From a virus (lineage: Duplodnaviria; Caudoviricetes), in IMG/VR virus record IMGVR_UViG_3300030101_003968, positions 731 through 64,730 of that record: 64,000 nt of DNA. The stretch is one strand, 5' to 3'. Within the stretch, counting starts at the first letter, position 1. Every line of letters begins with the position of its first letter. Positions 155-63,644 of the stretch are shown here, one piece after another. The position numbers were made by a program, and so were the translations under genes. A model generated the notes under the pieces. That model was not told where the DNA came from. It made no database searches and saw only the letters and a list, made by a program, of their open reading frames with translations.

Positions 155-177
155 TTGTTGAAGTTTGATGGGTTAAT

Positions 178-348
178 TTACTGATTATCAATGAGTTTGA
201 AGGTCTTGTTCCAGACGGTGTAGCCCGTAAAAGCCCACTCCGCTTGTGCCTTCCAAATGGCACGCTCCAACGTTGGTGCTTGGATGGTGTCCTTGCGCCA
301 GTCGTCTCGATCGCGCCCGTAGTAGACGTAGTATGCGTATGTGTTCAT
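178..348 (-). CDS. hypothetical early protein (MNTYAYYVYYG...)
   Basis: ORF track 178..384; ATG at 348 overlaps the upstream gene's stop. Confidence 0.6.
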   Translation of the reverse strand: MNTYAYYVYYGRDRDDWRKDTIQAPTLERAIWKAQAEWAFTGYTVWNKTFKLIDNQ

Positions 349-746
349 TTGAGTTTGATTTCGCAGTTGTTCTTGAAGTCCCAAATGGCTTCCTCTTCGC
401 GCTTCTTGCCTAAGGCGATAGCCTCTTCGCGGTCAAACACGATGTCGGAGACCTCGATGAAGGCGTAGTTGTCGTCGTTCACCCATGCACCGATTACCTG
501 CGTATAGGGATGTGGTTGAATTTGAAGCTGACGCTTCATGAACTCAATCAAGAGTTCCATCGTGTAGCTGAAGGCGTTGTAAGACAACAAGTTGTTGTCC
601 ACACATTCGACGGAATCCGCCGCTCCGCCCACTGCATACGCTTCCCGTGTGGGGCTGTAGCCGTTGAGGTCTTTGTCAACGGAGAATCCGTTGCCGCTCT
701 GCACGTTCAGGTAGCGCAGGAGCATAAGGTTGTCAATCATTTTCAT
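345..746 (-). CDS. hypothetical early phage protein (IGAW...IEVS...EAIALG...AIWD family)
   Basis: ORF track 345..782; likely start MKMIDN at 746, coupled to upstream stop. Confidence 0.7.
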   Translation of the reverse strand: MKMIDNLMLLRYLNVQSGNGFSVDKDLNGYSPTREAYAVGGAADSVECVDNNLLSYNAFSYTMELLIEFMKRQLQIQPHPYTQVIGAWVNDDNYAFIEVSDIVFDREEAIALGKKREEEAIWDFKNNCEIKLK

Positions 747-916
747 TGCTTGATGTTTTTGAGCAAGGCATCGAAGATGCAATCTTGCAGGTCAAACGTG
801 TCTGGTGTGTACTCACCGCGAACCTCTGCAACGCTGTCGCTCAGCAGGTCAGGTGCGTAGTCGAGCAAATCCTCAGTGATGAGGATAGCCAAATCTCGGA
901 TGTCGTCTTTTGTCAT
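743..916 (-). CDS. small acidic early protein (MTKDDIRDLA...), directly downstream of the hammerhead cut
   Basis: ORF track 743..973; upstream extension runs through the ribozyme, so ATG at 916 is preferred. Confidence 0.65.
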   Translation of the reverse strand: MTKDDIRDLAILITEDLLDYAPDLLSDSVAEVRGEYTPDTFDLQDCIFDALLKNIKQ

Positions 917-937
917 CGTAGATGGTTTTTGAAGTTT

Positions 938-994
938 GATACTGACACCCCAAGGGGTGTTTCGCCTATACAAGGCTCATCAGAGTACCTGTAC
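938..994 (-). ncRNA. type I hammerhead ribozyme
   Basis: - strand reads GUACA GGUACU CUGAUGA GCCU-UGUAU-AGGC GAA ACACCCC-UU-GGGGUGU C AGUAUC: complete catalytic core, stems I/II/III, GUC cleavage triplet, possible pseudoknot GUACA:UGUAU. Confidence 0.9.
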
Positions 995-999
995 TGCTT

Positions 1000-1140
1000 T
1001 CAGCAGTCGATGAGGTCAGCCAAGGTCATCTGCTCGTCGCAGGTCAGCTCGTCCCACTCAGCCGTAGAGGTGAGGAGGTCGAAGTCGAACGAAGAGGTCA
1101 GGAGGTCAGCAATAAGCTGACGGCGTAAGTGCTTATCCAT
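1000..1140 (-). CDS. small acidic early protein (46 aa, MDKHLRRQLIADLLTSSFDFDLL...)
   Basis: Read manually; preceded by hairpin repeat and TCAAACTTCAA motif; stop lies 5 nt upstream of the ribozyme. Confidence 0.6.
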   Translation of the reverse strand: MDKHLRRQLIADLLTSSFDFDLLTSTAEWDELTCDEQMTLADLIDC

Positions 1141-1176
1141 AGGATTGGGGTTTGAAGTTTGACATTTTGAGTGGTT

Positions 1177-1232
1177 GTCTCTCTAACTACACACTCTTCA
1201 TAAATGAAGAGAGTGTGTAGTAAGAGATACTA
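1177..1232. repeat. 56-nt hairpin repeat, copy A (long bulged inverted repeat)
   Basis: gtctctctaactacacactcttcat-aa-atgaagagagtgtgtagtaagagatacta; 54/56 identical to 62660-62715. Confidence 0.9.
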
Positions 1233-1237
1233 ACCGA

Positions 1238-1738
1238 TTAGAAGGGAACATCGGTGCTAACTTCGTTAGCAGAAGTCAGAGACGTGGTCTCCATGTGCAG
1301 AGCCAAGCACTGCGTAAGAGCCTCAATCTTTGCTTCTAACGAAGCAATCTTGTCGTTATTGTCCGCCTCAGCTTTCAGCTGAGCTTTCTTGGCTGCTCTC
1401 TGAGCAGCTCCTGTGGCTACGCTGACAGCTTTGGCTGACTCAGCAGCTTCCTTAACGGAAGCTGTCTTAGCCTTCTTCGAAGGCTTGATTGGACCAACTT
1501 CGTTGGTCTTGAGTGCCGCTTTGTCTTGGCGGTCTGCCACCTTCTGTGAAGGTGTCCTCTTCGTCGTCTTACGACGACGCTTCTTCGCCTTCGGCTTGTC
1601 TTTAACCTCTTCGAGGTTAGAGACAATGTCCAAAGCTTCTTGCAAAGCTTTGATTGCGGCGGCTTTGCGCTGAGCGGTTGGACGGAAGAGAGCTTGGTTG
1701 ACCGCTTTCTTGCAGTCGGAGAATTGGAAGTTTGACAT
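1238..1738 (-). CDS. Lys/Ala-rich basic protein, probably first gene of the early operon (possibly DNA-binding)
   Basis: 166-aa ORF with KAKKRRRK and AAKKA tracts and a C-terminal coiled coil. Confidence 0.75.
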   Translation of the reverse strand: MSNFQFSDCKKAVNQALFRPTAQRKAAAIKALQEALDIVSNLEEVKDKPKAKKRRRKTTKRTPSQKVADRQDKAALKTNEVGPIKPSKKAKTASVKEAAESAKAVSVATGAAQRAAKKAQLKAEADNNDKIASLEAKIEALTQCLALHMETTSLTSANEVSTDVPF

Positions 1739-1794
1739 GAGATAATGTATTAAATGAAACTCATAGAGTTTCGTTTCATTTAATACATATCTCA
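1738..1794. repeat. long inverted repeat abutting the start codon of 1238..1738
   Basis: atgtattaaatgaaac (1745-1760) / gtttcatttaatacat (1773-1788) perfect 16 bp, plus tgagat/atctca. Confidence 0.85.
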
Positions 1795-2145
1795 GTGGTT
1801 CGGCATCGGTACTCTAACGAGTTAGAGTAAAGGTCGCGGTACCAACGGTCAACTAGTTGACTCCTAGGGTACTGCGTGAAGGGACTGCCAACTCAAATCA
1901 GGTCAAGGTCAAGACCTTGAAAGAGTAGTCAGTGAAGCCCCAGTAGTGGGGTTATGTTTGTAACTCACTGAGTTACAAGGGGGATTGTCCTCTCCTTCGG
2001 AGCAACACGCCTGCAAAGTTAGTCAACCAAGGGTTGAACTAACCAGTCCTAACTGACTGAAAGTCAGGCAAAAAGCTGAAAGTTGTAGCAAAAACTGCAC
2101 TTTAGTGCAGGGGGTGGGGTCTGCAAACCCGTTTCGGGTTTGGTC
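1795..2145. other. hairpin-dense intergenic region between the divergent early and late blocks (structured leader, terminus or origin)
   Basis: About 10 short-loop inverted repeats, e.g. tactctaac/gttagagta, gtcaactagttgac, tcaaggtc/gaccttga, ttgtaactc/gagttacaa, ctgact/agtcag, caaacccg/cgggtttg. Confidence 0.6.
2014..2021 (-). promoter_or_regulatory. Bacteroidota-type -7 box TAACTTTG facing the early genes
   Basis: Matches TAnnTTTG on - strand; no clear -33 box. Confidence 0.45.
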
Positions 2146-2412: not shown

Positions 2413-2438
2413 TTTTAGACACAACAATAGCTGTATCT

Positions 2439-5240: not shown

Positions 5241-5241
5241 T

Positions 5242-9601: not shown

Positions 9602-9841
9602 ATGGAAGGACTTATTAGAAAAATTATCATCGGGCGAGACCCGAAGGATGCCATGGCGTATTACGTCGGAATGAACGCTGGCAGAGGCAAAGTTAGCGCT
9701 ATAGTAATGGATGAAAAGCACTTACATGTGCATGGAAAGAAGAGATATCTTGTATATTTGCAAGAGGAAGACGAGTCTCAGGTATTGTGGAAAGTCGTAG
9801 ACGACATGCCATGTTTGCTTGAATTCGATCTCAATTTCTAA
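9602..9841 (+). CDS. hypothetical protein (IRKIIIG.DPKDAMAYYVG)
   Basis: 79-aa ORF immediately upstream of the GroES-like gene. Confidence 0.7.
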   Translation: MEGLIRKIIIGRDPKDAMAYYVGMNAGRGKVSAIVMDEKHLHVHGKKRYLVYLQEEDESQVLWKVVDDMPCLLEFDLNF

Positions 9842-9845
9842 TTTA

Positions 9846-10451
9846 ATGAAGACATTTAATCTCTTCGTCGTTGAACTTGAAAAGAAAATCAATGACACTA
9901 TTAAAACTTCGTCGGGCCTGGAGCTATATGTGGACAACCGCTTCAACGAGTTTAAGCATCGCGTTAATGCTGGCCCTTTGGTTGCTGTTCCTTTTAAGTA
10001 TGAGACTGGCGCACAGCCAGGAGATACTTTGTTCTTTCACCACCTAGTAGTTCTTAATGAGGGTCAAGTTCTAACTGGGCATAAAGACCACTACCTAGTA
10101 AGGTATTGTGATCCAAGCGTTTCGGTGGTAAACAATCAAGCCATTGCTTACAAATCAAAAGACACTGGCAAGGTTCATCCTCTTGGAGGATGGGTAGTTC
10201 TTTCGCCTGTCGAGGAAGAACAAGAGTCTGAGTCGGAGGTTATCGAGGTGGTTAAACTCAAGGAGGATCCTGTCACAAAGGGGGTAGTATCATTTGAGTC
10301 TGAGAAGACCAAAGAGCTTGGCCTTGAGGTTGGAGACGTGGTGAGCTTCAAAAAGAACATGGACTACCGATTCAAAATAGACGATGTAGAGTACTACAGG
10401 GTTGATTACACTGATATATACTATGTCGAAGAAGAAGTTCACAACGGTTGA
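9846..10451 (+). CDS. groES: GroES-like co-chaperonin (two tandem GroES-like domains)
   Basis: KTSSGLEL...GDTLFFHH and HPLGGWVVL...GVV...LEVGDVVSF. Confidence 0.65.
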   Translation: MKTFNLFVVELEKKINDTIKTSSGLELYVDNRFNEFKHRVNAGPLVAVPFKYETGAQPGDTLFFHHLVVLNEGQVLTGHKDHYLVRYCDPSVSVVNNQAIAYKSKDTGKVHPLGGWVVLSPVEEEQESESEVIEVVKLKEDPVTKGVVSFESEKTKELGLEVGDVVSFKKNMDYRFKIDDVEYYRVDYTDIYYVEEEVHNG

Positions 10452-11332: not shown

Positions 11333-11406
11333 GCGCCTGTAGCTCAGCTGGATAGAGCATCTGCCTTCTAAGCAGACGGTCACAGGTTCGAATCCTGTCA
11401 GGCGTA
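11333..11406 (+). tRNA. tRNA-Arg (TCT)
   Basis: GCGCCTG-TAGCTCAGCTGGATAGAGC-A-TCTGC-CTTCTAA-GCAGA-CGGTC-ACAGG-TTCGAAT-CCTGT-CAGGCGT-A canonical cloverleaf. Confidence 0.95.
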
Positions 11407-11413
11407 CAATTAA

Positions 11414-29200: not shown

Positions 29201-29310
29201 CATCATTTAGAGACTCAAGTGAAGTTGGATCGCTAACTTCACGCCCTAAAAAGATTGTAAAAAAGTCTGCTAGTTCAAACAAGACGAAAAAAAGAGGCTA
29301 TGGCAAGTAA
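26221..29310 (+). CDS. tail protein: muzzle/stabilisation-type N-terminus fused to long acidic Ig-like region
   Basis: LNKE......D.LDAVNI...VKKIPG...LG.CVD...NRVFYF then about 900 aa acidic beta-rich sequence. Confidence 0.55.
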   Translation: MITNLRPRILNKESSPSVIKGTDMLDAVNIVADGLETSEQNTVKKIPGTIDVFFNDSDDAFLNTVLGVSVNKTAVVLGHCVDKERNRVFYFTSEYTAGSDTQSNGKIYMMEQFAPDEIKIVILGLISDILPEDFVAANIIRVPVLEEEYNLDENFGGVQEDQDTIIEFDDSVDVTDIQGEITVISTPNFPNLVVNPLEEAPSTTGFLTIQNTGGAIAYQTLFEFGEGINAEDPQDHSRIEMSIGQEALSELAPGDTFNLPITITTEGGVEAGTYEFFVTVISQNYTQVIPVQFALNIEVKTLVDPKFSISIQTSGPSSADYTYGENVTPSISLGPIEENSGIDSEATITFVREVTPDDEVSLPLGISFEIDTAQEALELSIGESDIAGSEVIMGGFEATLTDENTVAQFKIKLRDNNGPFENVVYDRTIQFSTSANLIAYPGFNSDGFSYEDIDVQIAVSVLEEVIVLPADIGTTGFNNQQFGLLPHLTNEENESELGVDAETLDGSSVTVTVGTIYNNGDEDGHFFLNLRGSTQGYGLEQLASLNKVGLRYKIGNVNSGDWKQMFSMTSIFNAVSGLDDGFPPGSDISLFSETLAGGNSQQLHIRIENIDDTCRAGVLDTIGETYEGDVILFENSWIGALGVLEMLRVEVHQIPSPDTNLTDVGSETYNNSGSTNPSVKGFMDIETIISTAEPIIGPTIVESRGRQTTAQLDSTGGGPLGGGLTTYYPKQFASIFTDPNQQLLDSIQANDGSVYSGSTDDGDGVGFAVANTSVAASGAADPTITISVSVTFQEPNFLGPFGSGFENHDPNPFQGTFGAVGSLGPVLVYTEPYLIGSQELTDFDSKDLSSYPFSAYNSSLAYGNNGDGHAEFGSCRQFFTTIPSSSVVFFAVKPEFSSYITFLQTPSSEYSYAFEDDHYGSFCGVNVNVNGNSTTLGNNTNRVVFPLTNEQWDWVHSQPDFGGAPPTPSRFDVDPTPSPLPFNDESIQQVVARPSFRDSSEVGSLTSRPKKIVKKSASSNKTKKRGYGK

Positions 29311-41800: not shown

Positions 41801-44800
41801 CAGACATTGCTAGAGCAATGAGCAGGGACGGAGCGTCTCCACGCGCATACGCCGCAAGAAACGAAGAGGGCAAGATTACTAGAATTATAGTTGACCCAAG
41901 ATCTACAATCGGAGACGCCCAACACGAGGTGGGACACGTCGTCCTGAGAACCGTTTATGACAACCCTGTTCAAAGAACTGCTCTTGTTGAGAAGATTCTT
42001 GACATGGCCAACATAAAGGGCAACGAAACATTCAGGGCTTGGGTCAACTCCACCATTGACCTTTACAACTCGAACAGAGAACAGCTGGGCAAGGATGATG
42101 TGGCTCAGGAGGAGCTTATCCAAAACTTCTTCCAAGCATACGTATCTGGAGAGTGGAATGTATTCAATGACGCTGGGAAGCAAATAGAAGTTAAAAAGAA
42201 GGTTAGAGATAGAATCGCCGAAGGCTTTTGGGACTTCTTGGCTATTCGCAACCCATCTGTCAGGAGCCTTAACATCAAGGACACCGACGGACTTATTGCT
42301 GTTGCGAAGAAGTTTCAGCGTTTTGTTTCTGATCAGCCAAACTTTTCTCCGACTACAGAAAAAGTCGCAAGCCCAATGGAGCGGATGGGCAAGATGGTTG
42401 CGGCCCCAGAGCAGGAGCGCCCTGAGCCAAAGAAAGAAAAGCTTGACCCCGCCTCTCTTTTCAAAGAAAAACCAGCAGAACCTGCTGAAGAAGCACCAGC
42501 ATCCGAAGAGGCTAAGCCACAGGATGACCTTACTGAAACAGCAGTACCGACTCCAGTCATGGGACCGCGTCAGGACACTGAGTCTGAGGCTGATTACAGG
42601 GCAAGGTTGCAGAGGGAGGCAGATGAGATGCTAAAGGGCACGGAGGGCATCGAAACATCTGCAGAGGACGCGCTGTCTCAAGAGACAGAGGGCCTCAGAT
42701 CAAAGCAAAGAGGCAAAGACTTTGTAGCAGGAAAAACCATTAAGGCGGTTTACCTTAGAAACTACGACGCAAGAGTCTTTGAGCTGAAGGCAAAGGATTA
42801 CGGTCACTACAGAAACTGGGTCGCAAAAATTACTGGAAACGGATCGCAGCCATTTGATCGCATTTCATATCAGAAAGAAGACGGTTCTTTTGCTGATCTT
42901 CGCGCACCAAAGCCTGTTTACAACAGGGATGGAACCCTTAGGCAGATGAGACCAGTGGACATCAGAACCTTTAAAATGAGGTTTATAGAGTCTCGCAATG
43001 CTATTCTGCAAGCAAGAACCGATGCTAAGGTGTCCAACACGAAAAGACTCACAAGACTTAGAGATCTCGCAAGAGAAAATAACATCAATCTTGACGAGTA
43101 CTTTGATTACAACTACGGCAACTACACGCTGTCTAACCTTGAGTACGCCGAGGTGCAGATTCTTTCAAGGATTTCAGAAGAGCCAGGAACCACACACGAC
43201 ATTGGGATTATTGGCCCCAATCTCGATGCCACTGGAAGAATAAGCTCCAGAGACCCACTTCCAAAAGACCTTGAGATTTACAACAAGGGAAGGGAGCTTG
43301 GATACAGATCCAAGAGAAGGAAGGTAGAGGGAGTTGGTACGCACACTACCTCCTTTAGCGAAAGAAGCGCTATAGAGCAGGGTGTTTTAACCAGAGTTAA
43401 AAACATTGATGAGTTTAGAAGTGAGCTAACAAGGCTTACTGGCGACGGAAGCATTTTTGCGATGATCGCAAAGTACGCCCCTACGTCATACGGCACAGCC
43501 ACGTTTGAGGTTGGAGGAAAAAAGGTTAAGGTCCCTGTAAAGAGCGGTGTTTACACTCCTGTTGTAGACTACTTCGATTTTATGAAAAAGAACGGCAGAG
43601 CACCATCTCCTTCTGAGATTAGCGCAATCACCAATACCAACAGCGGAAAGCAGTCGGAAGTGTTTGACGCCATCAAGGAGAGGGCTATGAGGTTTGCCGA
43701 CAACGACAAGCAATCAGTCATCTTCATCAAAAACCTTGGCGCAGAAAATCCCGCAGGAGATCCAGGAATCTTTGAGGCAGCATTTAAGATTATTGATGCA
43801 GCCATAGAGAGCTCGTCTAACCCAGGCGTAGCCGTGGAAATGGTTGTTGATTCCATCAACAAAATCATGGCGAAGACTTACAAGTCAAAGCTAAGCATCG
43901 GTGGCGGTGAAAAAATTGCCATAGACAAGGAAAACGGCAGAACACTGTTCCAAAGACTTTCAGATAAAGAGATCAAGGGTAGCGGTCTTTACGATCAGGA
44001 CGGATCCCTCAGGCTCAACAGAGCGGAGCCTGAACTTGCGTACAAAAACTTTAAGAAGTTTTTCGTTGATCAAAAGTCAAACAAGATTGGCTTTGAAATA
44101 AGAAAGCCGCTTCTTCTTAAGCTGCTGAATAGCAAGCACTTAGGAAGCACAGAAAGCAAGGAGTACTTGACCCTTCCTTCGTCCAAAGAATTTTTGGATC
44201 TCGTTAGCTCAGAAGAGCACCTCAACACAAGCTCTGCTACGGGCGATATCATTGGCGCAGTAATTGTTGACAATGCTGCCGCAAAGCTCAAGACTGAGGA
44301 CCCGTCTACGGGTAAACCCTACCTATATGGTGTAACTGGATTTAAGGGGCTTGTCATGTTTGATGAGTTTGCTACAGAAGCAAAGGTTCAGGAGATGATG
44401 ATTGCCAGAAACCCAGAAAGATACACTGGTGGTATTGGCGCTCAGGCTTCAGGGCTCGCGGGGCTTATGTCCAAGCGCAGGGCTGGACGCATCTACCACC
44501 ATGGCGCAGGTCAGTGGGAAAAGTCCACCAGCAACATGTTTGGAAACGCCCTTTCTGCTATTGCACTGAAGTTTCAGGACAAGTACTTTGATGTCATCAT
44601 GCTTCAGAGCGATGTAGAAAACTACAAGAAGCAAAGAGTAGAGGCTGGGCAAGACTTTGACCTTGCGCTCGACCTCATGTACGGAAAGACAAGAGATAAC
44701 CTTGAGTCCCTTGAAACTACCTTGGACATGATTAAGGATCTGATGGCTCAGTCTGAGATTACATCAGATCAACTTTCGGACTACCTCTACGCTAAGCATG

Positions 44801-47289
44801 CACCAGAAAGAAACGCATACGTAGCCTCTAAGAACCCAGACAACAAGGCTGGTTCGGGTCAGAGTGACGTATGGGCAGCTCAGACGGTAAGAGAGCTAGA
44901 GACTCCTGAGATGAAGCGCGTAGCTGGACTTGTTTACTCGATTATCGACAACACGAGAAAGACCATGGTCAAGTTTGGTCTGGAAACTCAGGAAACAATC
45001 GACGCATGGCAGGATTTGTTCGGGAACTACGTTCCACTCGCAGGGCTTGCCACTGATGAAATGGATGAAAACAACATCGCCTACCCAACAGGCGGTGCTG
45101 GTATGGGGGTTTATGGCACTACCCAGAAGAAAATCAAGGGACGTAAGAGCGAGGTAAAGGCAAACATCGTGGCTCAGGTCGTGATGCAAAACGCCATGGT
45201 CATTCAGACCGCAAGGAAGAACGAGGCCATGATGCACCTGTACCGACTCATCAAGGAGAACCCCAATGCAAACGTCTGGGGCATCAATACGTCTACTTTC
45301 CCTCTCACTAGGTTGAATGAACAGGGGCAACAGGAAGGCATGTCTGTTGCAGAAATGAAACAGAACCCTCACACCGTTCCAATCAGGGTAAATGGCAAGA
45401 CAGAGTTCTTGTACTTCAAGGACAAAAACTATGCTAACACCCTTAACGGCATGACCGTTGAGAGGGCATCTATCTTCACGAGAGGCCTCAACTCCATGAC
45501 TGGCTTCATGCGAAACATGCTTACGGTGTATGACCCTAACTTCATGATCAGCAACTACGCTCGCGACATTCAGGCAGCCGCCTACAACGCGATGGCAGAG
45601 GCTGAGATGGATGGTGGATACATACAAGGTGTTAGCCACGCTAAGTTCGCAAAGGACCTTATGTCCAACATGTATCTTTCTACTAGTCAGTTGTTTAAGA
45701 ACGCCGCCTTTGGCATCGAAATGGACGCTGAAATCCAGGGGTATATGGCGGAGTGGTCAGCAGATGGAGGTAAGACTGGATGGGGGTATACCAAGTCCCT
45801 TAACGATATCACTGCTGAGCTTGAGCAAGCTTCTAAGTTTTCGGGAGATTCCGCGTCAAGGGAGTTTGACATCATCATGGGTACGCCTAGGAGGTTTGCC
45901 AACTACATCGAAGGCATTAACGAGGCATTCGAGGCCTCTACTAGACTTGCATCTTACATCGCTGCAAGGCAGAACGGAATCAGTAGAGAAAGAGCTGCAC
46001 AGCTTTCAAAGAATGTCACCGTAAACTTCAATAGAAGCGGAGAGTGGCAGTTCTTGAACAGCGTGTATCTATTCTTCAATGCCGCCATGCAGGGTAACTA
46101 CAGGTTCCTAAGATCCATGACGTACCTGAAGGACGTGCGGAAAGAAAATGGTGAGCTTGAGTCTTGGCACAAAAGAGTTTCTGTACCGCAGAAAATCGCG
46201 TTTGCCATCAGCTCATTCAGCGGCCTCGTGGCTACTCTCAACATTGCAATGAGTGGCACCGATCCCGACGACGGAGAGTTGTGGTACAACAAGATTCCAG
46301 ACTACCACAAGGAAAGAAACCTGATCTTCATGCACAGGGACGGGAAGAACTACAGCATGATCCCCCTACCATACGGGTACAACATTTTCAACAACCTTGG
46401 AACCGTGCTTGCTGAAACATCTACAGGAAATAGAGAGTTTTGGGATGGTGCTATGTTCCTCGGAATGTCTGGCTTTAGTGCTTTCTCTCCGATTGGATTC
46501 GGTCAGAGCAAGAACTTTGCAACATACCTTGGCAAGGCTGCAGCCCCCACGCTCGTCAAGCCATTGGTGGAGATTGCGGCAAACGAAACCTACTTCGGAT
46601 CTCAAGTTTATCAGGAGCGCCTTCCGTTCTCAACAACTCCCTATTCCCAGCTGGCTTTCCAATCGCCAGAGCAAGTTCAAGAGTTCTTCCAGTGGATGAA
46701 CGAAGCTACAGGCGGCAGCAAGTACAAGTCGGGATCACTTGATATGAATCCAGATCAGCTCTGGTACCTATACGAGTACTACATCGGCAGCGCGGGAAGG
46801 TTTGTGGGCAACACAGGAGAGCTTGCAACGAACATGTACGAGATGTCAAAAAACTCCTACAGACTCGCTGCTGAGCAAGGAATGAGCTACGATGCGTTTA
46901 AGAAAATGACAGCTGGATTCCAGGGCAAAAACAGAATTAGAATGCGCCCCAGTCAAATACCGATTATTAGAAAGGTATACGGGGAGCCATCTAGATACTT
47001 TGATAGCGACAAGTACAAGGAAAACACCTTTGAAATACAACAGCTCAAAAAAGAACTTGATAAGGAGCCAATCTACACTCCAGGAAGATACCGAGGTGTT
47101 CAGGAACTTCACAAGTTATTTAAGGAGACCAACAAGACCCTTAAGACAATTAGAGCTCAAAGAAGGCTGGCTAAGGACATAAAGGACAGAACGGAAAAAA
47201 TTAACAGGCTTTACGAGCTTGATGAGAGACAAAGAAGAGTAATGACCATTTACAACAGAAAACATGAAGAACTCAGAGGACAAGATTAA
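38884..47289 (+). CDS. giant polyvalent ejection protein with C-terminal LPD38-like domain and zincin-like HEVGH motif
   Basis: 2801 aa; KNVTVNFNRSG...YLFFNAAMQG...IPLPYGYN...PLVEIAANETYFG; TATATTTG box 4 nt before ATG. Confidence 0.75.
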   Translation: MPLRSGFSSPQSEVQSIIEDYRNQGLPDEQLEKRLSEEFAPEMWEPILHPKEEPKDDLESRLVSQIGEKPEQPSFPQDIYDEFQYDFRNPLIKPLPPKGGFVTTDGTYNKSLEAYNSQAEKRNFRAKKQSAVFELYNNQVDEYNYNAQAWNDAAEDILEDENREFYESTIKIDKSLAAITQLPERVNPYSWKSALGEQRNTGKFSPLDFGTHIFAQKTDTDIHNEMLRDEGYLSAMKNPMDESFNLGSSDYPVLVSGSPDDVMSQVKMIYDERNDKNFASDPAFVAALKEKMKRKDSYRSAYMKEWFSKYAKENVFDLKNMTPEEMAQAEQDIFDDTGLYINLDGNNTVGAAKEGDFWTNMSAATMRLRATGNNVMFVANAMGKALDFVMSEDTKSYERYDIRLDELRDRKNELERAAEEISQGMTRYYMTRTEAMLAGDDLSLDIDDVEQASIITVLKGFVGLEDSFSKMERLEALQSLPQSQTGNLIGMLFALATRGKGSKAAKGVTGLFNFFAKTSLGASVPMATMVGADKFAEIYDDPFFSTFTDSEGLEVSPIAAQRMLEEAQLFGNSNATFESLGLTRNRNDAAILGYTTVHAGGEAAGELAGGLLFKGFGKYATGTPLDRAAKKRIGQYLVGMFSAVGISMPEEYLEEAITEAIQYSAELGFEDREFNMDEFVSRVRKAGLSGFTMAPLMGTATSVVGTAMQERQIQQMSPEEFNLYQLRFAYNSEYDRLDKTARDIIEMEQTRDASNDPSFVQHMNEEIAQKRKTLKKNQKARMDKAFALLEKDAPLANKIMLSGQKISGLASMVKEETNEDIKKIYEEELEKAIGERAQLDDAVAEALREQRTIVVKDRDGNDVKTSFTERSATTEEKREMEGLSSAQRPNAEDAAAQDELDEEFDLDYDAGMEDDQIVMLSGMDGVTMEQGSIDESKMQKGVMDFLRMVAPDLASEDLTIITYGSQKAYEADPDIARAMSRDGASPRAYAARNEEGKITRIIVDPRSTIGDAQHEVGHVVLRTVYDNPVQRTALVEKILDMANIKGNETFRAWVNSTIDLYNSNREQLGKDDVAQEELIQNFFQAYVSGEWNVFNDAGKQIEVKKKVRDRIAEGFWDFLAIRNPSVRSLNIKDTDGLIAVAKKFQRFVSDQPNFSPTTEKVASPMERMGKMVAAPEQERPEPKKEKLDPASLFKEKPAEPAEEAPASEEAKPQDDLTETAVPTPVMGPRQDTESEADYRARLQREADEMLKGTEGIETSAEDALSQETEGLRSKQRGKDFVAGKTIKAVYLRNYDARVFELKAKDYGHYRNWVAKITGNGSQPFDRISYQKEDGSFADLRAPKPVYNRDGTLRQMRPVDIRTFKMRFIESRNAILQARTDAKVSNTKRLTRLRDLARENNINLDEYFDYNYGNYTLSNLEYAEVQILSRISEEPGTTHDIGIIGPNLDATGRISSRDPLPKDLEIYNKGRELGYRSKRRKVEGVGTHTTSFSERSAIEQGVLTRVKNIDEFRSELTRLTGDGSIFAMIAKYAPTSYGTATFEVGGKKVKVPVKSGVYTPVVDYFDFMKKNGRAPSPSEISAITNTNSGKQSEVFDAIKERAMRFADNDKQSVIFIKNLGAENPAGDPGIFEAAFKIIDAAIESSSNPGVAVEMVVDSINKIMAKTYKSKLSIGGGEKIAIDKENGRTLFQRLSDKEIKGSGLYDQDGSLRLNRAEPELAYKNFKKFFVDQKSNKIGFEIRKPLLLKLLNSKHLGSTESKEYLTLPSSKEFLDLVSSEEHLNTSSATGDIIGAVIVDNAAAKLKTEDPSTGKPYLYGVTGFKGLVMFDEFATEAKVQEMMIARNPERYTGGIGAQASGLAGLMSKRRAGRIYHHGAGQWEKSTSNMFGNALSAIALKFQDKYFDVIMLQSDVENYKKQRVEAGQDFDLALDLMYGKTRDNLESLETTLDMIKDLMAQSEITSDQLSDYLYAKHAPERNAYVASKNPDNKAGSGQSDVWAAQTVRELETPEMKRVAGLVYSIIDNTRKTMVKFGLETQETIDAWQDLFGNYVPLAGLATDEMDENNIAYPTGGAGMGVYGTTQKKIKGRKSEVKANIVAQVVMQNAMVIQTARKNEAMMHLYRLIKENPNANVWGINTSTFPLTRLNEQGQQEGMSVAEMKQNPHTVPIRVNGKTEFLYFKDKNYANTLNGMTVERASIFTRGLNSMTGFMRNMLTVYDPNFMISNYARDIQAAAYNAMAEAEMDGGYIQGVSHAKFAKDLMSNMYLSTSQLFKNAAFGIEMDAEIQGYMAEWSADGGKTGWGYTKSLNDITAELEQASKFSGDSASREFDIIMGTPRRFANYIEGINEAFEASTRLASYIAARQNGISRERAAQLSKNVTVNFNRSGEWQFLNSVYLFFNAAMQGNYRFLRSMTYLKDVRKENGELESWHKRVSVPQKIAFAISSFSGLVATLNIAMSGTDPDDGELWYNKIPDYHKERNLIFMHRDGKNYSMIPLPYGYNIFNNLGTVLAETSTGNREFWDGAMFLGMSGFSAFSPIGFGQSKNFATYLGKAAAPTLVKPLVEIAANETYFGSQVYQERLPFSTTPYSQLAFQSPEQVQEFFQWMNEATGGSKYKSGSLDMNPDQLWYLYEYYIGSAGRFVGNTGELATNMYEMSKNSYRLAAEQGMSYDAFKKMTAGFQGKNRIRMRPSQIPIIRKVYGEPSRYFDSDKYKENTFEIQQLKKELDKEPIYTPGRYRGVQELHKLFKETNKTLKTIRAQRRLAKDIKDRTEKINRLYELDERQRRVMTIYNRKHEELRGQD

Positions 47290-47705: not shown

Positions 47706-47837
47706 ATGGAAGAGGACTTCGACGACATCAGCTTTTTGGATCAAGACAAGCTCAAGAAGCAAGAAAAGAAGATTGAAGACGGTGATATCACCTGCAACAT
47801 CGACAACCCAGAGGATTGCGAGTCATGCAGCGGATAA
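47706..47837 (+). CDS. 43-aa acidic peptide ending CNIDNPEDCESCSG
   Basis: ATG 47706 within track ORF 47634..47837; terminal CxxC. Confidence 0.65.
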   Translation: MEEDFDDISFLDQDKLKKQEKKIEDGDITCNIDNPEDCESCSG

Positions 47838-49888
47838 TATCGTTGTTGTTTTTTTTGCCCCTGTTGGCTGCAGCACAGCCCAGCTGGGTAAGAGTTGAGT
47901 TTCAGAGTGACGCCTACGGAGAGGAAAGCAGCTGGAACATATATCCAGTTGGCTCCGATGAGTCTGTGGCCTCTGGGGGCCCATACGCTGATTCAACGTA
48001 CTTCCAACAAACAATCCCGCTTCCATCTGGTGAGTACAACATGGTTGTTGACGACGCCTTTGGGGACGGGATTTGTTGTGGGTTTGGAGAAGGATGGTTC
48101 AAGCTGAACAATGACTGCGAGCTTGATATCGCTGTTTTTGACTTTGACACAGCTCAGATAACAGTTCCGTTTACCCTTACCCCGTGTGAGCTGCCAATGC
48201 CTGGTTGTATGGACGAGTCGTCCAACAACTACAACCCATGGGCCACCGTAGACAACGGAACATGTAACGTCAGCGAGTGTCCTGAGGGTCAGGCATTTGT
48301 GTCTATGGAGCTTACACTAGACAACTGGCCTAACGAAACTGGATTTACATTGGTGGACCTTGCTGTCGGTCAGTTCTACGAGCAGGTGCTTCCAGGGGGT
48401 TTTAACTTTGGAGATCAATTAGCCACCTACACTTACGACTTCTGCGTTGCACTTGGCTTCGAGCTTATTCTGACAGACACATACGGAGACGGTCTCAATG
48501 GTTCTGCAAGCGGAGGTCAAGATGGAGGAGTGGTCATCACTGCATGCGACGAAGAGGTTGTCTGGGAGCTGGAAGATCTATCCTACTCAGACAACGACGG
48601 AAACGTTCACTACTCAGGTGCCGTGTTTGTAGAGCCGTGCGCCATCGAAGAGCCCGTAGTGGGCTGCATGGACGACGATTACGTTGACTACAACCCAGAA
48701 GCTACAGAAGCAGGGGACTGCCTCACCCTACACAACTGGGGGTGCATGGACCCAGGATCATTTAATTACGACTCAACCGCCACAATTTCAGACCTCAACA
48801 GCCCGTGCGTCACGACCATAAGAATCGGTGATGCAGCAGGAGATGGATGGGGCAATTCACACATAGGTGTAAAGCAGGGGGACCTGCAGTGGATCTTTAC
48901 CATGGGGCCTGGAGAGTTTTCTCAGTCCTGGGACCTGATCCTTGACTCAGACGAAAAGGTAGACGTGTACTACTTTGAGGTTGGAGGACCACAGCAACCG
49001 CCTCAAGAGACTGAGTTTCAAACACTTCACAACTCCATCCTTGTTACAAACGAGCTTGGAGACACGCTGATGGTGGAGGGTCTTAACCCGTTCTTTGACA
49101 ATGGTCAGGGGGCGCTTCAGCCTTTCAAGAACCCAGAGTGGAACGTATACAGCTTTATGCCCTACTGCGGTACAAGCTGCATTCCGTTTATGTACGGATG
49201 CACTGACGACACCGCACAGAACTACGATGACGAAGCTAATACAGAGGATGGGAGCTGTTACTACAATGCTGGATGCACGCAGGCTGGATACGTCGAGTAC
49301 TACAATCAGGGATACGAAGCGGACTATGACGACGGCAGCTGCGAGACGCTCGCTGTATTTGGGTGCATGGACTCCGAAGCCCTTAACTACGATTCAGAAG
49401 CAAACGTAGATACGGGAGACTGCATTGAAGTTGTACTTGACTGCATGGACCCTAACGCATTTAATTACAATGAGTTAGCTAACGTTTCTAATGAAGAAGC
49501 ATGCCTGTATGATGCGGGCTGCATTACAGGTCCAGGACAACCATATTGGGCCAACGACTACTGCTACTCGTGGGTGATCGAGGTTGACCCATACTGCTGC
49601 GAAACAGCGTGGGATGCGGTGTGTGCAGAGATGTACAACTACTGTGGCGCTGGAGTGACGTCAGTGGAAATGGCTGTAAGGTCATTGCTTCAATTTTTTC
49701 CAAATCCAACATCAGGGTTGGTAAACATTCAGGCACCCGTGGGCACTCTAATAACCTTGTTTGACGCAAGGGGTAGGGTTGTTGAAACAACCACAGGCAA
49801 CACAGTTGAGCTGCCATCTCCAGGACCGTATGTAATCATGGCCAACTACAAGGGTAGAATCAAGAGAGAAACAATCGTAAGACAATGA
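47825..49888 (+). CDS. secreted Cys-rich repeat protein with T9SS type A C-terminal sorting domain
   Basis: Signal peptide ending LLAAA|Q; multiple GC[MT]D...NY repeats; D..GDG domains; C-terminal FFPNPTSGLVNI...LFDARGR...GPYVI. Confidence 0.8.
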   Translation: MQRIISLLFFLPLLAAAQPSWVRVEFQSDAYGEESSWNIYPVGSDESVASGGPYADSTYFQQTIPLPSGEYNMVVDDAFGDGICCGFGEGWFKLNNDCELDIAVFDFDTAQITVPFTLTPCELPMPGCMDESSNNYNPWATVDNGTCNVSECPEGQAFVSMELTLDNWPNETGFTLVDLAVGQFYEQVLPGGFNFGDQLATYTYDFCVALGFELILTDTYGDGLNGSASGGQDGGVVITACDEEVVWELEDLSYSDNDGNVHYSGAVFVEPCAIEEPVVGCMDDDYVDYNPEATEAGDCLTLHNWGCMDPGSFNYDSTATISDLNSPCVTTIRIGDAAGDGWGNSHIGVKQGDLQWIFTMGPGEFSQSWDLILDSDEKVDVYYFEVGGPQQPPQETEFQTLHNSILVTNELGDTLMVEGLNPFFDNGQGALQPFKNPEWNVYSFMPYCGTSCIPFMYGCTDDTAQNYDDEANTEDGSCYYNAGCTQAGYVEYYNQGYEADYDDGSCETLAVFGCMDSEALNYDSEANVDTGDCIEVVLDCMDPNAFNYNELANVSNEEACLYDAGCITGPGQPYWANDYCYSWVIEVDPYCCETAWDAVCAEMYNYCGAGVTSVEMAVRSLLQFFPNPTSGLVNIQAPVGTLITLFDARGRVVETTTGNTVELPSPGPYVIMANYKGRIKRETIVRQ

Positions 49889-61486: not shown

Positions 61487-61662
61487 TGTATGTTGTCGTT
61501 GTAAAGGTTTGAAAGGTCTTCGTACAGCTCCATCAGGTGCTGTTGCACGTCGAAGTCAGGTGTGTCTTGTAGCTCCATGTACTCTTGCATCCTGTCCATG
61601 AACACACATCCCACTGCGGCGGCAATAGCTGTTCCGTTTGTTCTTTCGAATTTGTTAGTCAT
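61483..61662 (-). CDS. hypothetical early protein (MTNKFERTNG...)
   Basis: Coupled start. Confidence 0.55.
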   Translation of the reverse strand: MTNKFERTNGTAIAAAVGCVFMDRMQEYMELQDTPDFDVQQHLMELYEDLSNLYNDNIQ

Positions 61663-61822
61663 TGTCTTCAAAGTATTCGTTGTATAGGTCTTCGATGTAT
61701 TCGTCTGATTCAAATCCAAGCGACTCATAGATGTACTCATAGAGGCTCTCGTACATGGTCTTGTGGTCCATGTTCTGCACTACGGCATCGACGTAGCGTT
61801 CAATCTTTTCTTCACGAGTCAT
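61655..61822 (-). CDS. 55-aa very acidic, Tyr-rich early protein (MTREEKIERYVD...YFEDND)
   Basis: Read manually; fills the gap between neighbours. Confidence 0.6.
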   Translation of the reverse strand: MTREEKIERYVDAVVQNMDHKTMYESLYEYIYESLGFESDEYIEDLYNEYFEDND

Positions 61823-61829
61823 AGCTGTT

Positions 61830-62396: not shown

Positions 62397-62620
62397 GATG
62401 AGAAAGGATTATTGTAAGTTTTTTCGATGATGAGGTCAGATGCCTCGTCGATGTTAGACAGGAGTGTGGCAAGGGGAGTCCTGCACTCGTGAACCCCTGA
62501 TACGTCTTTGCAACAGGCGTCCATCAGATTCAGGTTTAGATACTGAATGATGTGGTTGACCTTACCCAAGTCCTCTTGGATAGCTTCGGCAAGTTGCCGT
62601 GTGTTCATGTCTTGTAGCAT
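62393..62620 (-). CDS. hypothetical early protein
   Basis: 75-aa ORF preceded by TCAAACTTCAA motif. Confidence 0.6.
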   Translation of the reverse strand: MLQDMNTRQLAEAIQEDLGKVNHIIQYLNLNLMDACCKDVSGVHECRTPLATLLSNIDEASDLIIEKTYNNPFSS

Positions 62621-62659
62621 GATGGATTGAATTGAAGTTTGAAATTTGAAGTCGTATAA

Positions 62660-62715
62660 GTCTCTCTAACTATACACTCTTCATAAATGAAGAGAGTGTA
62701 TAGTAAGAGATACTA
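62660..62715. repeat. 56-nt hairpin repeat, copy B
   Basis: Identical to 1177-1232 except one compensatory pair. Confidence 0.9.
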
Positions 62716-62717
62716 GA

Positions 62718-62776
62718 TGGAGATGTTGAAGGAATCGAACCTTCGAGGATAACCTCCCTAATCCATAGGAACACCT
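62718..62776 (-). ncRNA. 59-nt miniature tRNA-like cloverleaf ending in CCA
   Basis: AGGUGUU CCUA-UGGAU-UAGG GAGG-UUAU-CCUC GAAGG-UUCGAUU-CCUUC AACAUCU CCA. Confidence 0.7.
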
Positions 62777-62817
62777 TGCGGGCTATGCCCCTCGTGAGTA
62801 GCTTTCTCACGACACAG

Positions 62818-62902
62818 AAGGGAGGAGGGGAATCGAACGCCTCGTGTACCCATCCGTTGTGCTTTGCCCGAAGTGCTTTGCCGTTGGATTGTACGCTCCC
62901 TT
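62818..62902 (-). ncRNA. 85-nt tRNA-like element (acceptor stem + T-arm, long central arm)
   Basis: AAGGGAG/CUCCCUU acceptor; GAGGCG-UUCGAUU-CCCCUC T-arm; central GUAC/AUCC stems with GGCAAAGCAC twice. Confidence 0.55.
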
Positions 62903-62911
62903 GAAAGAGTC

Positions 62912-62977
62912 GGGGGGAAGGTGTGACGTTTCACACCCAAAGAGAACCTTTGGTTGCATCCCGAAAGGCGTCCCCCC
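62912..62977 (-). ncRNA. putative three-way-junction RNA
   Basis: GGGGGGA/UCCCCCC closing stem; GCCUUUCGG/CCAAAGGU and GGUGUGA-AACG-UCACACC arms. Confidence 0.4.
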
Positions 62978-62989
62978 TATGGTCAAACT

Positions 62990-63133
62990 TCAATCAACCA
63001 AATCTTTCTGTTCGTTTTGCCACTTGTCGTGGGCTTTCTCTACGGCAGTGTTGAGAGCCTCTGCCTGTGCTCGGTCGATCGCCTGTCCCTGCATACGGGC
63101 AAGCTGAATAATTACGTTTACAATATCAGTCAT
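62990..63133 (-). CDS. small early protein (MTDIVNVIIQ...)
   Basis: Coupled start within track ORF 62990..63262. Confidence 0.55.
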   Translation of the reverse strand: MTDIVNVIIQLARMQGQAIDRAQAEALNTAVEKAHDKWQNEQKDLVD

Positions 63134-63305
63134 CGTCGTTGTTTCTGTCGTAAGGTCTGAGTTCAAAGCTAACATCCCATGTTGCTTCGCATTCTTCACA
63201 TTCGTAGTCGTAGTGCCACGCCTCCCCATCTGATTCAGAGTTGAGAAGGATTCCGTGACCACTGCACTTGTGGCAGGTTTCGTAGTTGATTACTTGCTTA
63301 TCCAT
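63126..63305 (-). CDS. small zinc-ribbon protein
   Basis: MDKQVINYETCHKC...YECEECEATW. Confidence 0.6.
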   Translation of the reverse strand: MDKQVINYETCHKCSGHGILLNSESDGEAWHYDYECEECEATWDVSFELRPYDRNNDDD

Positions 63306-63561
63306 TGTACTTGTCTTCGATTCGGTTGAGAGTTTCTTTGCAACAAGCCACCCACGCCTCCATGTTGATGAGTGAGATGCGTCCGCTTTCACGCATAGCT
63401 TCTGCTTCTTCGAGAATCATGTCCTCGTTTTCAATGTATTCATTGAGTCCCTTTTGAAGGCAGTCAATGATGACCATCTGCACGAGCGCCCCGTACTTGC
63501 TGTACCCCGTCATGAGGTGGCTGATGAACTCTTCGTTCGTCATGTCTTTGATGTTGTCCAT
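63298..63561 (-). CDS. hypothetical early protein (MDNIKDMTNEEFI..LMT.YSKYGAL.Q)
   Basis: Start preceded by TCAAACTTCAA motif. Confidence 0.65.
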   Translation of the reverse strand: MDNIKDMTNEEFISHLMTGYSKYGALVQMVIIDCLQKGLNEYIENEDMILEEAEAMRESGRISLINMEAWVACCKETLNRIEDKYNG

Positions 63562-63603
63562 TGGTATTGGATTTGAAGTTTGAAAATGTTGTTGAGAGGT
63601 GTT

Positions 63604-63644
63604 GTATATATCTCTCTTCACTACGTTCAGAGAGAGATATATAC
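63604..63644. repeat. 14-bp inverted repeat related to the 56-nt hairpin family
   Basis: gtatatatctctct / agagagatatatac; shares ctcttca...gagag...atacta with copies A and B. Confidence 0.75.

What the first reader, a model, noticed from the sequence alone, without database searches (positions are those of the whole stretch)
158..63644. Candidate multi-device RNA-processing system for the early transcript (ribozyme, RNase III-type stems and tRNA-like elements upstream of a shared leader motif)
Seen: five of six copies of the - strand motif UCAAACUUC(A/C)A sit immediately 3' of a cleavable-looking RNA structure. These are the hammerhead (938-994), long stems at 1180-1227, 1738-1794, 62663-62710 and 63604-63644, and, upstream of stem B, two tRNA-like RNAs. 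Established: T7 early mRNA is cut by RNase III at intergenic bulged hairpins, and tRNA-like folds are cut by RNase P/Z. Inference: this phage chops one long early transcript with interchangeable devices so that each fragment starts with the same short leader. A self-cleaving ribozyme occupying the same slot as RNase III-type stems would be unusual.
Basis: inference. Interest (0 to 1): 0.85.

Follow-up and report, generated by a model that had tools for sequence, protein, structure and literature searches.

The report
Standard leader fed by swappable RNA devices
An uncultured marine phage puts the same short leader in front of its early gene blocks and places a self-cutting hammerhead, a long hairpin or a tRNA look-alike just upstream of it, which gives a testable role for phage ribozymes.

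Summary
The window is a circular ~64.65-kb phage of a Bacteroidota-phage lineage. Its - strand early operon carries six copies of TCAAACTTC(A/C)A (0.18 expected). Five follow a structure: a type I hammerhead (938-989) and four ~20-24-bp hairpins. Two tRNA-like elements lie upstream of hairpin B.

In 33 related contigs fetched through a protein, not the motif, hammerheads occur only on the sense strand, with an invariant core and compensatory stem changes. The motif sits 20-22 nt before the ATG in 104 of 142 units.

Devices swap at orthologous genes: one family has 16 hairpins and 2 hammerheads, another 11 hammerheads and 2 hairpins. In a sister clade an ordinary host-type promoter fills the slot. 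Its predicted start is 5 nt before CAAAC, the same register as hammerhead cleavage.

Best reading: a standardised translation leader whose 5' end is made by interchangeable devices. RNase III cutting of the hairpins is unproven. Their stems are almost purely Watson-Crick and sit at variable distance from the motif.

One conserved complement of the leader covaries with it.

The scan reached the same reading earlier on a related genome (e1-6237029). No RNA ends were seen. I class it as a new variant of a known kind.

The parts
938..989 (-). Type I hammerhead ribozyme. Stem I is 6 bp (one G.U), stem II 4 bp, stem III 6 bp. Predicted cleavage is after GUC, between 944 and 943.
   Evidence: Descriptor result. 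MFE is the three-way junction. Core columns are invariant and stems covary in relatives. Own covariance model gives 73.2 bits. Rfam gives only 21 bits.
929..939 (-). Leader motif UCAAACUUCAA. Its first two bases close hammerhead stem I. The ATG is at 916.
1177..1232 (-). Hairpin A, about 22 bp with a 2-nt bulge and no U-tract.
   Evidence: -26.0 kcal/mol, z -5.41. It differs from hairpin B by one compensatory pair, C-G to U-A (sequences).
1152..1162 (-). Leader motif ahead of the 46-aa gene (ATG at 1140).
1736..1798 (-). Hairpin D, about 22 bp. It abuts the ATG of the first early gene.
   Evidence: -24.9 kcal/mol, z -8.79
1725..1735 (-). Motif-like TCAAACTTCCA that forms codons 2-4 of the first early gene (MSNFQF...). 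It is probably coding, not a leader.
   Evidence: Relatives encode MNNFNF and carry a separate upstream motif.
158..168 (-). Leader motif with no upstream structure (ATG at 154).
63596..63652 (-). Hairpin C, about 20 bp, with a loop (CUGAACGUAGUGA) conserved in relatives.
   Evidence: -23.8 kcal/mol, z -4.72. Relatives.
63573..63583 (-). Leader motif ahead of the 87-aa gene (ATG at 63561).
62660..62715 (-). Hairpin B, a near copy of hairpin A.
   Evidence: -24.1 kcal/mol, z -4.98
62632..62642 (-). Leader motif ahead of the 75-aa gene (ATG at 62620).
62718..62776 (-). tRNA-like mini cloverleaf: 7-bp acceptor, T-arm with UUCGAUU loop, a 4-nt loop in place of the anticodon loop, then CCA.
   Evidence: The MFE is a cloverleaf at -19.1 kcal/mol, z -1.97. 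Homologues in L123 and L145 pass Rfam's tRNA threshold at 38.8 and 36.2 bits against 29.
62818..62902 (-). Second tRNA-like element: 7-bp acceptor AAGGGAG/CUCCCUU, a T-arm, and one long variable arm.
   Evidence: The fold is not better than shuffles. The acceptor and T-arm family recurs in most relatives.
62983..62993 (-). Anti-leader: the - strand RNA reads UUGAAGUUUGA, the exact complement of the leader. It occurs once per genome, just 5' of a G-rich hairpin and the tRNA-like cluster.
   Evidence: Present in 24 of 33 sequences. It covaries with the leader in L145 and G001.
2014..2021 (-). TAACTTTG, the only TAnnTTTG box in non-coding sense-strand sequence of the first 12 kb. It is a candidate early promoter.
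   Evidence: Two boxes were found where about three are expected by chance, so this is weak.

Best explanation
The early genes of this phage clade are arranged in small translation blocks. Genes inside a block overlap their upstream neighbour. Each block is headed by a standard G-poor leader: about 5 nt, then CAAACUUCAA, then about 11 nt, then AUG.

The leader places its last two adenines at -13 and -12. These are positions that favour initiation in Shine-Dalgarno-less Bacteroidota.

The slot just upstream of the leader holds one of several interchangeable devices that make, or isolate, a new 5' end:
- a type I hammerhead that cuts itself 5 nt before CAAAC;
- a tRNA-like element for RNase P and RNase Z;
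- a ~23-bp hairpin, possibly an RNase III site;
- in relatives, an ordinary sigma-A promoter whose predicted start is also 5 nt before CAAAC.

Shown by sequence and comparison: the elements, their conservation, their swapping and the shared register. Inferred: the cleavage events themselves and the translational role of the leader.
For: Association in the window: motif excess and strand bias. 5 of 6 window units, plus a seventh outside the window, follow a structure.

Relatives were fetched through a protein, not the motif (33 loci):
- Descriptor hammerheads occur in 22 of 33 loci on the sense strand and in 0 of 33 on the antisense strand.
- The covariance model finds 36 hits in 526,285 bases, all sense.
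- All 435 pair cells are paired. 58 cells across 7 pairs carry double changes, against a shuffled mean of 15.8 (0 of 500 shuffles reach 58).

Units: 154 motif units remain after removing 4 duplicate loci: 86 hairpin, 35 hammerhead, 4 T-loop, 29 none. A hairpin of 20 bp or more precedes 74 of 119 non-hammerhead units, against 25 of 495 random positions.

Phasing: motif-to-ATG distance is 20-22 nt in 104 of 142 units. Genes with the motif have a median gap of 85 nt to the upstream ORF. 163 of 246 genes without it overlap or abut that ORF.

Swaps: family U01 has 16 hairpins and 2 hammerheads. U03 has 11 hammerheads and 2 hairpins. U09 has 4 hammerheads and 1 hairpin. 11 of 21 families are mixed.

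Promoters in the slot: TTG-N19-TAnnTTTG plus 9 nt plus CAAAC occurs in L145 and G001, and a promoter precedes the same gene in L126 and L140 and in L149. The sigma-A box lies at -12 to -5 in flavobacteria (PMC9723704 passages). This puts the start 5 nt before CAAAC, as with hammerhead cleavage.

Host signals: adenines at -12 and -13 and low structure favour initiation in Flavobacterium (PMC6847099 passages).

tRNA-like homologues pass Rfam's tRNA threshold.
Against: - No RNA end has been seen. The only RNA-library data were contigs, which cannot show ends.
- Hairpin stems show no G.U over A.C asymmetry (10 against 8 among 1453 pairs). Sense and antisense fold energies do not differ (mean -0.44; sense more stable in 40 of 86). 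The hairpins could therefore work at the DNA level.
- The hairpin-to-motif gap ranges from 0 to 49 nt. RNase III cuts would not give a uniform leader.
- 29 of 154 units have the motif with no device, so a free 5' end is not obligatory.
- The hammerhead has a short stem I, and the proposed loop II pseudoknot is not supported (36 of 200 permutations reach the observed value). Fast cleavage at cellular Mg2+ is therefore not assured.
- Pairing in the hammerhead set is partly by construction, because the descriptor demanded stems.
- The host is unknown. That it has RNase III, P and Z is assumed from general knowledge.
Confidence: 0.6

Rival explanations
1. The hammerhead and tRNA-like elements are cut, but the long hairpins are not RNase III sites. 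They stay intact. They may shield the 3' end of the upstream piece and the 5' side of the downstream piece from exonucleases. Or they may act as folding insulators that keep upstream coding RNA from pairing with the unstructured leader.
For: - The gap to the motif is variable (0-49 nt).
- Hairpins often follow a tRNA-like element directly, where a second cutter would be redundant.
- Hairpins start within a few nt of the upstream stop codon.
- Low structure around the start favours initiation in flavobacteria (PMC6847099 passages).
Against: - Hairpins take the place of hammerheads and promoters at orthologous genes, which suggests an equivalent role.
- A median stem of 23 bp is far longer than a stabiliser or insulator needs, and it matches double-stranded RNase substrates (recalled).
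Confidence: 0.3
2. The hairpin-plus-motif units are DNA-level cassettes like the PeSL terminator/promoter units of T4-like phages. The motif would be a promoter or initiator for an unrecognised polymerase. The stems would be terminators or recombination points that shuffle early genes.
For: - Stems are nearly perfect Watson-Crick palindromes.
- Gene order differs between relatives at unit boundaries.
- In the sister clade the motif lies at predicted primary starts.
- PeSLs are composite terminator/promoter motifs between early genes that mediate shuffling (PMC4122927 abstract).
Against: - The hammerhead must be transcribed through, and its stem I overlaps the motif.
- None of this genome's units has a TAnnTTTG box within 3-14 nt of the motif, even allowing one mismatch.
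- None of the hairpins is followed by a T-run, and sigma-70-type sites are at chance level.
- No RNA polymerase was found among the ORFs scanned.
- The motif lies only 20-22 nt from the ATG.
- In this genome and in L104 the first gene's ATG lies 5' of the motif-like copy.
Confidence: 0.08
3. The association is chance, or a by-product of repeated DNA with no function.
For: Hairpins A, B and the copy outside the window are near-identical repeats.
Against: - Motif excess.
- Hammerheads are strictly on the sense strand, with compensatory changes.
- The arrangement is conserved across contigs whose marker protein is only 49-88% identical.
- Only one decayed hammerhead copy (L133:7368-7418, 43.8 bits) was found in 526 kb.
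Confidence: 0.02

Closest known systems
Clustered hammerhead ribozymes flanking genes in prophages and phages, and HHphage of haloviruses HF1/HF2 (Perreault et al. 2011, PMC3088659; passages read)
   Same: Self-cleaving hammerheads lie between genes of polycistronic phage RNAs and were proposed to cut them into gene-length mRNAs. HHphage lies 13 nt before a start codon of an early transcript, and a mapped 5' end lies near its cleavage site.
   Different: Here the hammerhead is one of several devices that replace each other at the same gene boundaries. It always delivers the same leader in a fixed register. This subfamily scores below Rfam thresholds: 21-25 bits against 34 for Hammerhead_1.
RNase III processing of phage T7 early mRNA at intergenic hairpins
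   Same: One long early transcript made by host polymerase, with long intergenic stems between early genes.
   Different: T7 sites have internal loops and their cleavage is proven. Here the stems are nearly perfect, cleavage is untested, and the host is a Bacteroidota member.
tRNA punctuation and t-elements of mitochondrial transcripts (plant t-elements: PMC1920247, search listing and abstract start only; animal tRNA punctuation recalled)
   Same: tRNA or tRNA-like folds inside long transcripts serve as RNase P and RNase Z sites that create mRNA ends.
   Different: This is a phage operon. The tRNA-like elements lack a normal anticodon loop, one arm is hypervariable, and they are interchangeable with a ribozyme, a hairpin or a promoter.
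PeSL promoter-early stem-loop cassettes of T4-like phages (PMC4122927 abstract; PMC2839356 listing only)
   Same: Short conserved stem-loop-plus-signal units between small early genes. Gene content is shuffled at these units.
   Different: PeSLs are terminator/promoter DNA signals. In this genome no promoter box accompanies the units, and ribozymes and tRNA mimics fill the same slot.
Synthetic insulators and processing arrays (RiboJ hammerhead insulator, Csy4 sites, tRNA-gRNA arrays; recalled, the one search for them failed on a term format)
   Same: A cleaving RNA element upstream of each cistron gives it a standard 5' untranslated region independent of context.
   Different: Those are engineered. 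This would be a natural counterpart.

Membership tests
Hammerhead ribozyme (type I) | Conserved core CUGANGA ... GAAA, A15.1-U16.1 pair, non-G at position 17 | tested here: met
   Present at 938-989. The core columns are invariant in 34 sequences, and the base before the cut is C in at least 90% of them.
Hammerhead ribozyme (type I) | Three helices around the core, supported by covariation; stem I open | tested here: met
   15 pairs are paired in all 435 cells. 7 pairs carry double changes (58 cells, against a shuffled mean of 15.8). Sliding the partner columns drops pairing to 22-54%. Caveat: the sequences were picked by a descriptor that demands stems.
Hammerhead ribozyme (type I) | Score at or above Rfam's gathering threshold | tested here: not met
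   Window: RAGATH-1-hammerhead 21 bits against 56.3, Hammerhead_3 17.4 against 48.5. Relatives: Hammerhead_1 21.4-24.9 against 34.
Hammerhead ribozyme (type I) | Tertiary contact between loop II and stem I or its flank | tested here: inconclusive
   The loop II to 5' flank complement averages 3.12 nt against 2.99 in permuted flanks; 36 of 200 permutations reach it. Loop II positions T18 and T22 are invariant and A20 nearly so.
Hammerhead ribozyme (type I) | Self-cleavage | not testable with these tools
   Needs in vitro transcription.
RNase III substrate (T7-type processing stem) | About two turns of double-stranded RNA in an intergenic spacer | tested here: met
   Window stems are about 20-24 bp. 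The median is 23 bp in 86 hairpin units.
RNase III substrate (T7-type processing stem) | Evidence that the stem acts as RNA on the transcribed strand | tested here: inconclusive
   10 G.T against 8 A.C among 1453 stem pairs. Sense and antisense fold energies are alike.
RNase III substrate (T7-type processing stem) | Cleavage by RNase III, and the host having the enzyme | not tested
   The host is unknown and no RNA ends are available.
tRNA-like element (RNase P/Z substrate) | 7-bp acceptor stacked on a T-arm with a UUCRANY loop | tested here: met
   62718-62776 and 62818-62902. The same families occur in most relatives.
tRNA-like element (RNase P/Z substrate) | Match to the Rfam tRNA model at threshold | tested here: inconclusive
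   Not met in the window. Met by homologues L123:4129-4197 (38.8 bits) and L145:9141-9206 (36.2 bits) against 29. ARAGORN at a relaxed threshold calls some relatives 'tRNA-???'.
Decoding tRNA | 7-nt anticodon loop | tested here: not met
   The loop has 4 nt in the window element and in L123 and L124. The anticodon loop is deleted in the Rfam alignments.
PeSL-type terminator/promoter cassette | A host-type promoter next to the stem-loop | tested here: not met
   No TAnnTTTG box, even with one mismatch, lies 3-14 nt before the motif in any unit of this genome. Sigma-70-type sites are at chance level and none of the hairpins has a T-run.

The most novel reading that the evidence does not exclude
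The leader is standardised so that one RNA can control the whole early gene set. The single anti-leader (UUGAAGUUUGA, 62983-62993) lies in the same transcript, about 4 kb into the operon, just 5' of a G-rich hairpin and the tRNA-like cluster. RNase P could release it as a small RNA. That RNA would pair with every early leader across -21 to -11 and shut off, or expose to a double-strand RNase, all early messages with a built-in delay. Alternatively it closes a long-range stem that masks the next leader until the tRNA-like elements are cut out.

The anti-leader is present in 24 of 33 sequences. In some relatives it lies wholly outside the upstream reading frame. It changes in step with the leader in two contigs: leader CAAACAUCAA with anti-leader UUGAUGUUUG.
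Probability: 0.2. Interest if true: 0.85.

Novelty: new variant of a known kind. Interest (0 to 1): 0.72.

Why it matters
What most bacterial and phage hammerheads do is still open (review PMC6765202, passages). This clade offers a natural comparison.

The same slot in front of the same genes is filled by a ribozyme, a tRNA mimic, a long hairpin or a plain promoter. The ribozyme cut and the predicted promoter start fall in the same register. That argues the ribozyme's job is to make a defined mRNA 5' end.

The standard leader is also a candidate strong translation signal for Bacteroidota, which lack Shine-Dalgarno pairing. Expression parts for these bacteria are scarce.

It would be a natural counterpart of engineered ribozyme insulators. 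The covarying anti-leader hints at a one-RNA switch for a whole temporal gene class.

Tried and rejected
Annotation and relatives
- Rfam at gathering thresholds finds only the true tRNA-Arg. In E-value mode it gives only weak hammerhead hits and nothing for the tRNA-like region.
- No DNA match in the phage collection. The marker protein has no match there either, so no cultured relative carries this early region.
- The hammerhead-plus-motif pattern scan returned 115 stretches, most at chance level. The descriptor gave 10 hits in the 117 loci then held: 8 genuine-looking hammerheads (L001, two in L019, L025, L052, L060, L090, L104) and 2 doubtful (L059, L110). That set is biased towards the motif and was not used for association counts.
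- Two descriptor hits (L126:17594-17713, L129:6947-7077) were dropped as artefacts. Four duplicate loci (L121, L150, L141, L146) were dropped before the counts.

Hairpin tests
- My first hairpin control used 13 bp or more and was too permissive: 121 of 636 non-motif ORF starts and 35 of 198 random positions passed. I replaced it with graded thresholds.
- The sense-against-antisense energy test and the wobble test gave no asymmetry. The G.U count on whole 85-nt folds (44 against 138) is confounded by base composition.

Other structure and pairing tests
- The pseudoknot between loop II and the 5' flank is not supported.
- The anti-leader pairs no better with the nearest downstream leader than with other leaders, so the cis closing-stem idea gains nothing from energies.
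- Sigma-70 promoter and terminator scans are at chance level.
- My fold of 62836-62921 cut the element short. I redid it as 62818-62902.

Enzymes and other ribozymes
- No RNA polymerase, RNase or RNA-repair enzyme turned up in Pfam or PHROGs scans. The smaller ORFs were not all scanned.
- No other ribozyme class reaches threshold in 8 related loci.

Sequencing runs
- The stretch is held by marine metagenomes. The one RNA-library run holds relatives only as contigs. One contig spans the hammerhead and hairpin A, but contigs show neither ends nor transcription. Nothing follows about processing.

Ideas and literature
- The idea of another scan note, that hairpin units are trans substrates of a hammerhead, I considered by reasoning only and set aside. 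In a type I hammerhead the cleavage strand is continuous with a closed stem III.
- Searches for prior description were. None of the listed papers describes this leader or these swaps. Supplements could not be opened, so the hammerhead lists of PMC3088659 may already include members of this subfamily.

Full report
WHAT THE WINDOW IS. The window is bases 731-64730 of a 64,730-base contig whose last 77 bases repeat bases 3-79. The genome is therefore a circle of about 64.65 kb.

It encodes a terminase, portal, virion proteins, endolysins, a primase-helicase and an exonuclease. The terminase's nearest relatives in the phage collection are Flavobacterium phages (68 of 114 records), uncultured phages and Cellulophaga phages, all below 60% identity. 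So this is an uncultured phage of a Bacteroidota-phage lineage. It is held mainly by marine metagenomes.

Small - strand genes run from about 2400 down to 1, through the 730 bases outside the window, and on from 64000 to about 52000. That is one long early and middle operon.

THE OBSERVATION. TCAAACTTC(A/C)A occurs six times on the - strand and once on the + strand, against 0.18 expected. All - strand copies lie in the first ~3.8 kb of the operon.

Five follow a structure. One is a hammerhead at 938-989. Four are hairpins with z-scores of -4.7 to -8.8. A seventh unit lies just outside the window.

The hammerhead has every core base. A descriptor finds it once in the genome. It hits 2 of 400 random genomes at any quality and none at stems of 6, 3 and 6 pairs or better; the real hit has 6, 4 and 6. 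Rfam scores it far below threshold.

Upstream of hairpin B lie a 59-nt mini cloverleaf ending in CCA and a weaker acceptor-plus-T-arm element.

RELATIVES. I fetched 33 related loci through a 188-aa early protein, not through the motif. Four are duplicates.

- Descriptor hammerheads occur in 22 of 33 loci on the sense strand and in none on the antisense strand.
- In an alignment of 34 hammerheads (29 distinct) the core is invariant. All 435 pair cells are paired, and 7 of 15 pairs carry compensatory changes in 58 cells, against a shuffled mean of 15.8. Pairing is partly by construction, since the descriptor demanded stems.
- One stem I pair is G.U in 28 of 29 sequences. It would be an A.C mismatch on the other strand.
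- A covariance model built from the alignment finds the 34 sequences, one decayed copy and one copy with a long stem III insert in 526 kb, all sense.

ANATOMY OF THE UNITS. There are 154 motif units in the de-duplicated set (30 of the 33 sequences contain units): 86 hairpin, 35 hammerhead, 4 T-loop and 29 with nothing. A hairpin of 20 bp or more precedes 74 of 119 non-hammerhead units, against 25 of 495 random positions.

The motif is tightly phased to the start codon, at 20-22 nt in 104 of 142 units. This puts its last two adenines at -13 and -12.

Genes with the motif sit a median 85 nt from the upstream ORF. 163 of 246 genes without it overlap or abut that ORF. So the motif heads independent translation blocks.

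In Flavobacterium johnsoniae, adenines at -3, -6, -12 and -13 and low structure favour initiation (PMC6847099 passages). More distant relatives keep G-less leaders without the exact motif.

SWAPPING. Grouping units by the downstream protein gives 21 families, of which 11 have more than one device class.

- U01 (MDNFF...) has 16 hairpins and 2 hammerheads.
- U03 has 11 hammerheads and 2 hairpins.
- U09 has 4 hammerheads and 1 hairpin.
- U02 has 13 hairpins, 2 T-loops and 2 'none'.

The two 'none' cases of U02 (L126, L140) in fact have a canonical TTTG ... TATCTTTG promoter.

In a sister clade (L145 and G001) four leaders are preceded by TTG-N19-TAnnTTTG (one box with a single mismatch) plus 9 nt. 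In L149 the same gene has a promoter and no motif.

The sigma-A box lies at -12 to -5 in flavobacteria (PMC9723704 passages). The predicted start is therefore 5 nt before CAAAC. Hammerhead cleavage leaves AGUAU before CAAAC, also 5 nt. This shared register is my strongest argument that the slot is a maker of 5' ends. It rests on a predicted start, not a mapped one.

tRNA-LIKE ELEMENTS. Three families recur upstream of the marker gene. Each has a 7-bp acceptor and a T-arm. One has a hypervariable arm in place of the anticodon arm. Homologues of the window's mini cloverleaf pass Rfam's tRNA threshold with the anticodon loop deleted. They are tRNA-derived but cannot decode.

WHAT REMAINS OPEN. 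Hairpin stems are almost purely Watson-Crick (1435 WC, 10 G.T, 8 A.C). They fold equally well on both strands. They lie at variable distance from the motif and often follow a tRNA-like element. RNase III cleavage is therefore a reasonable guess, not a finding. Intact stabiliser or insulator hairpins fit as well.

A DNA-level reading (PeSL-like cassettes, PMC4122927 abstract) is weakened on several counts:
- the transcribed hammerhead overlaps the motif;
- no promoter boxes lie in front of this genome's units;
- no hairpin has a T-run;
- no polymerase gene was found.

No RNA ends could be seen.

ANTI-LEADER. The one inverted copy (62983-62993) lies in a conserved 20-nt context in 24 of 33 sequences. 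In some of them it is outside the upstream reading frame. In L145 and G001 the leader reads CAAACATCAA and the inverted copy TTGATGTTTG. This is a compensatory change. It fits RNA pairing, but equally fits one DNA site used in both orientations.

COMPARISON AND VERDICT. Hammerheads flanking phage genes, and the idea that they cut polycistronic RNA, are in print (PMC3088659 passages; PMC6765202 passages). So are tRNA-like processing signals in organelles (listing and abstract only) and T7 RNase III sites (recalled).

What appears new is the interchangeable slot, the standard leader in a fixed register, and the covarying anti-leader. The searches found no description of these.

An earlier report of this scan (e1-6237029) reached the same reading on a related genome. 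My counts were made before I saw it.

Noticed in passing
window 62983-62993 (reads UUGAAGUUUGA on the - strand): A single exact complement of the leader, conserved once per genome in a 20-nt context. It covaries with the leader in two sister-clade contigs.
   Followed up: partly
L130:6615-6815 (same contig as L019): Two hammerheads in tandem. The second carries an insert of about 100 nt in stem III and still ends at the leader motif.
   Followed up: partly
L133:7368-7418: The only decayed hammerhead copy found (43.8 bits). The core is partly kept, and the cleavage site and stem I are lost.
   Followed up: partly
L123:4044-4197 and L145:9056-9206: A hammerhead followed, after two small hairpins, by the tRNA-like element and then the leader: several devices in a row before one gene.
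   Followed up: partly
window 2095-2110 (-): A terminator-like hairpin with a T-run about 75 nt upstream of the TAACTTTG box. It lies inside a ~450-nt non-coding stretch full of small hairpins between the divergent gene blocks.
   Followed up: no
window 938-989 and relatives: This hammerhead subfamily scores below all Rfam hammerhead thresholds (17-25 bits), so routine annotation would miss it.
   Followed up: yes
window 943 and 984 (run X19): Contigs of an RNA-library run carry relatives with the compensatory stem I change (984 A>T with 943 T>A) and stem II changes, matching the covariation seen in the viral contigs.
   Followed up: no
window 47816-49888 (+): A 690-aa protein with a weak, sub-threshold match to the type IX secretion C-terminal sorting domain (18.4 bits against 27). 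This fits a Bacteroidota host.
   Followed up: no
window 38884-47289 (+) and 29300-35566 (+): Two giant proteins of 2801 and 2088 aa. The first has an LPD38 domain and matches large PHROG families of unknown function. Neither shows a polymerase signature.
   Followed up: partly
window 9819-10451 (+): A 210-aa protein matching a phage GroES-like co-chaperonin family (PHROG 13932, E 8e-46).
   Followed up: no
window 11333-11407 (+): A standard tRNA-Arg(UCU). Relatives carry a tRNA-Ile(UAU) call next to it at a relaxed ARAGORN threshold.
   Followed up: no
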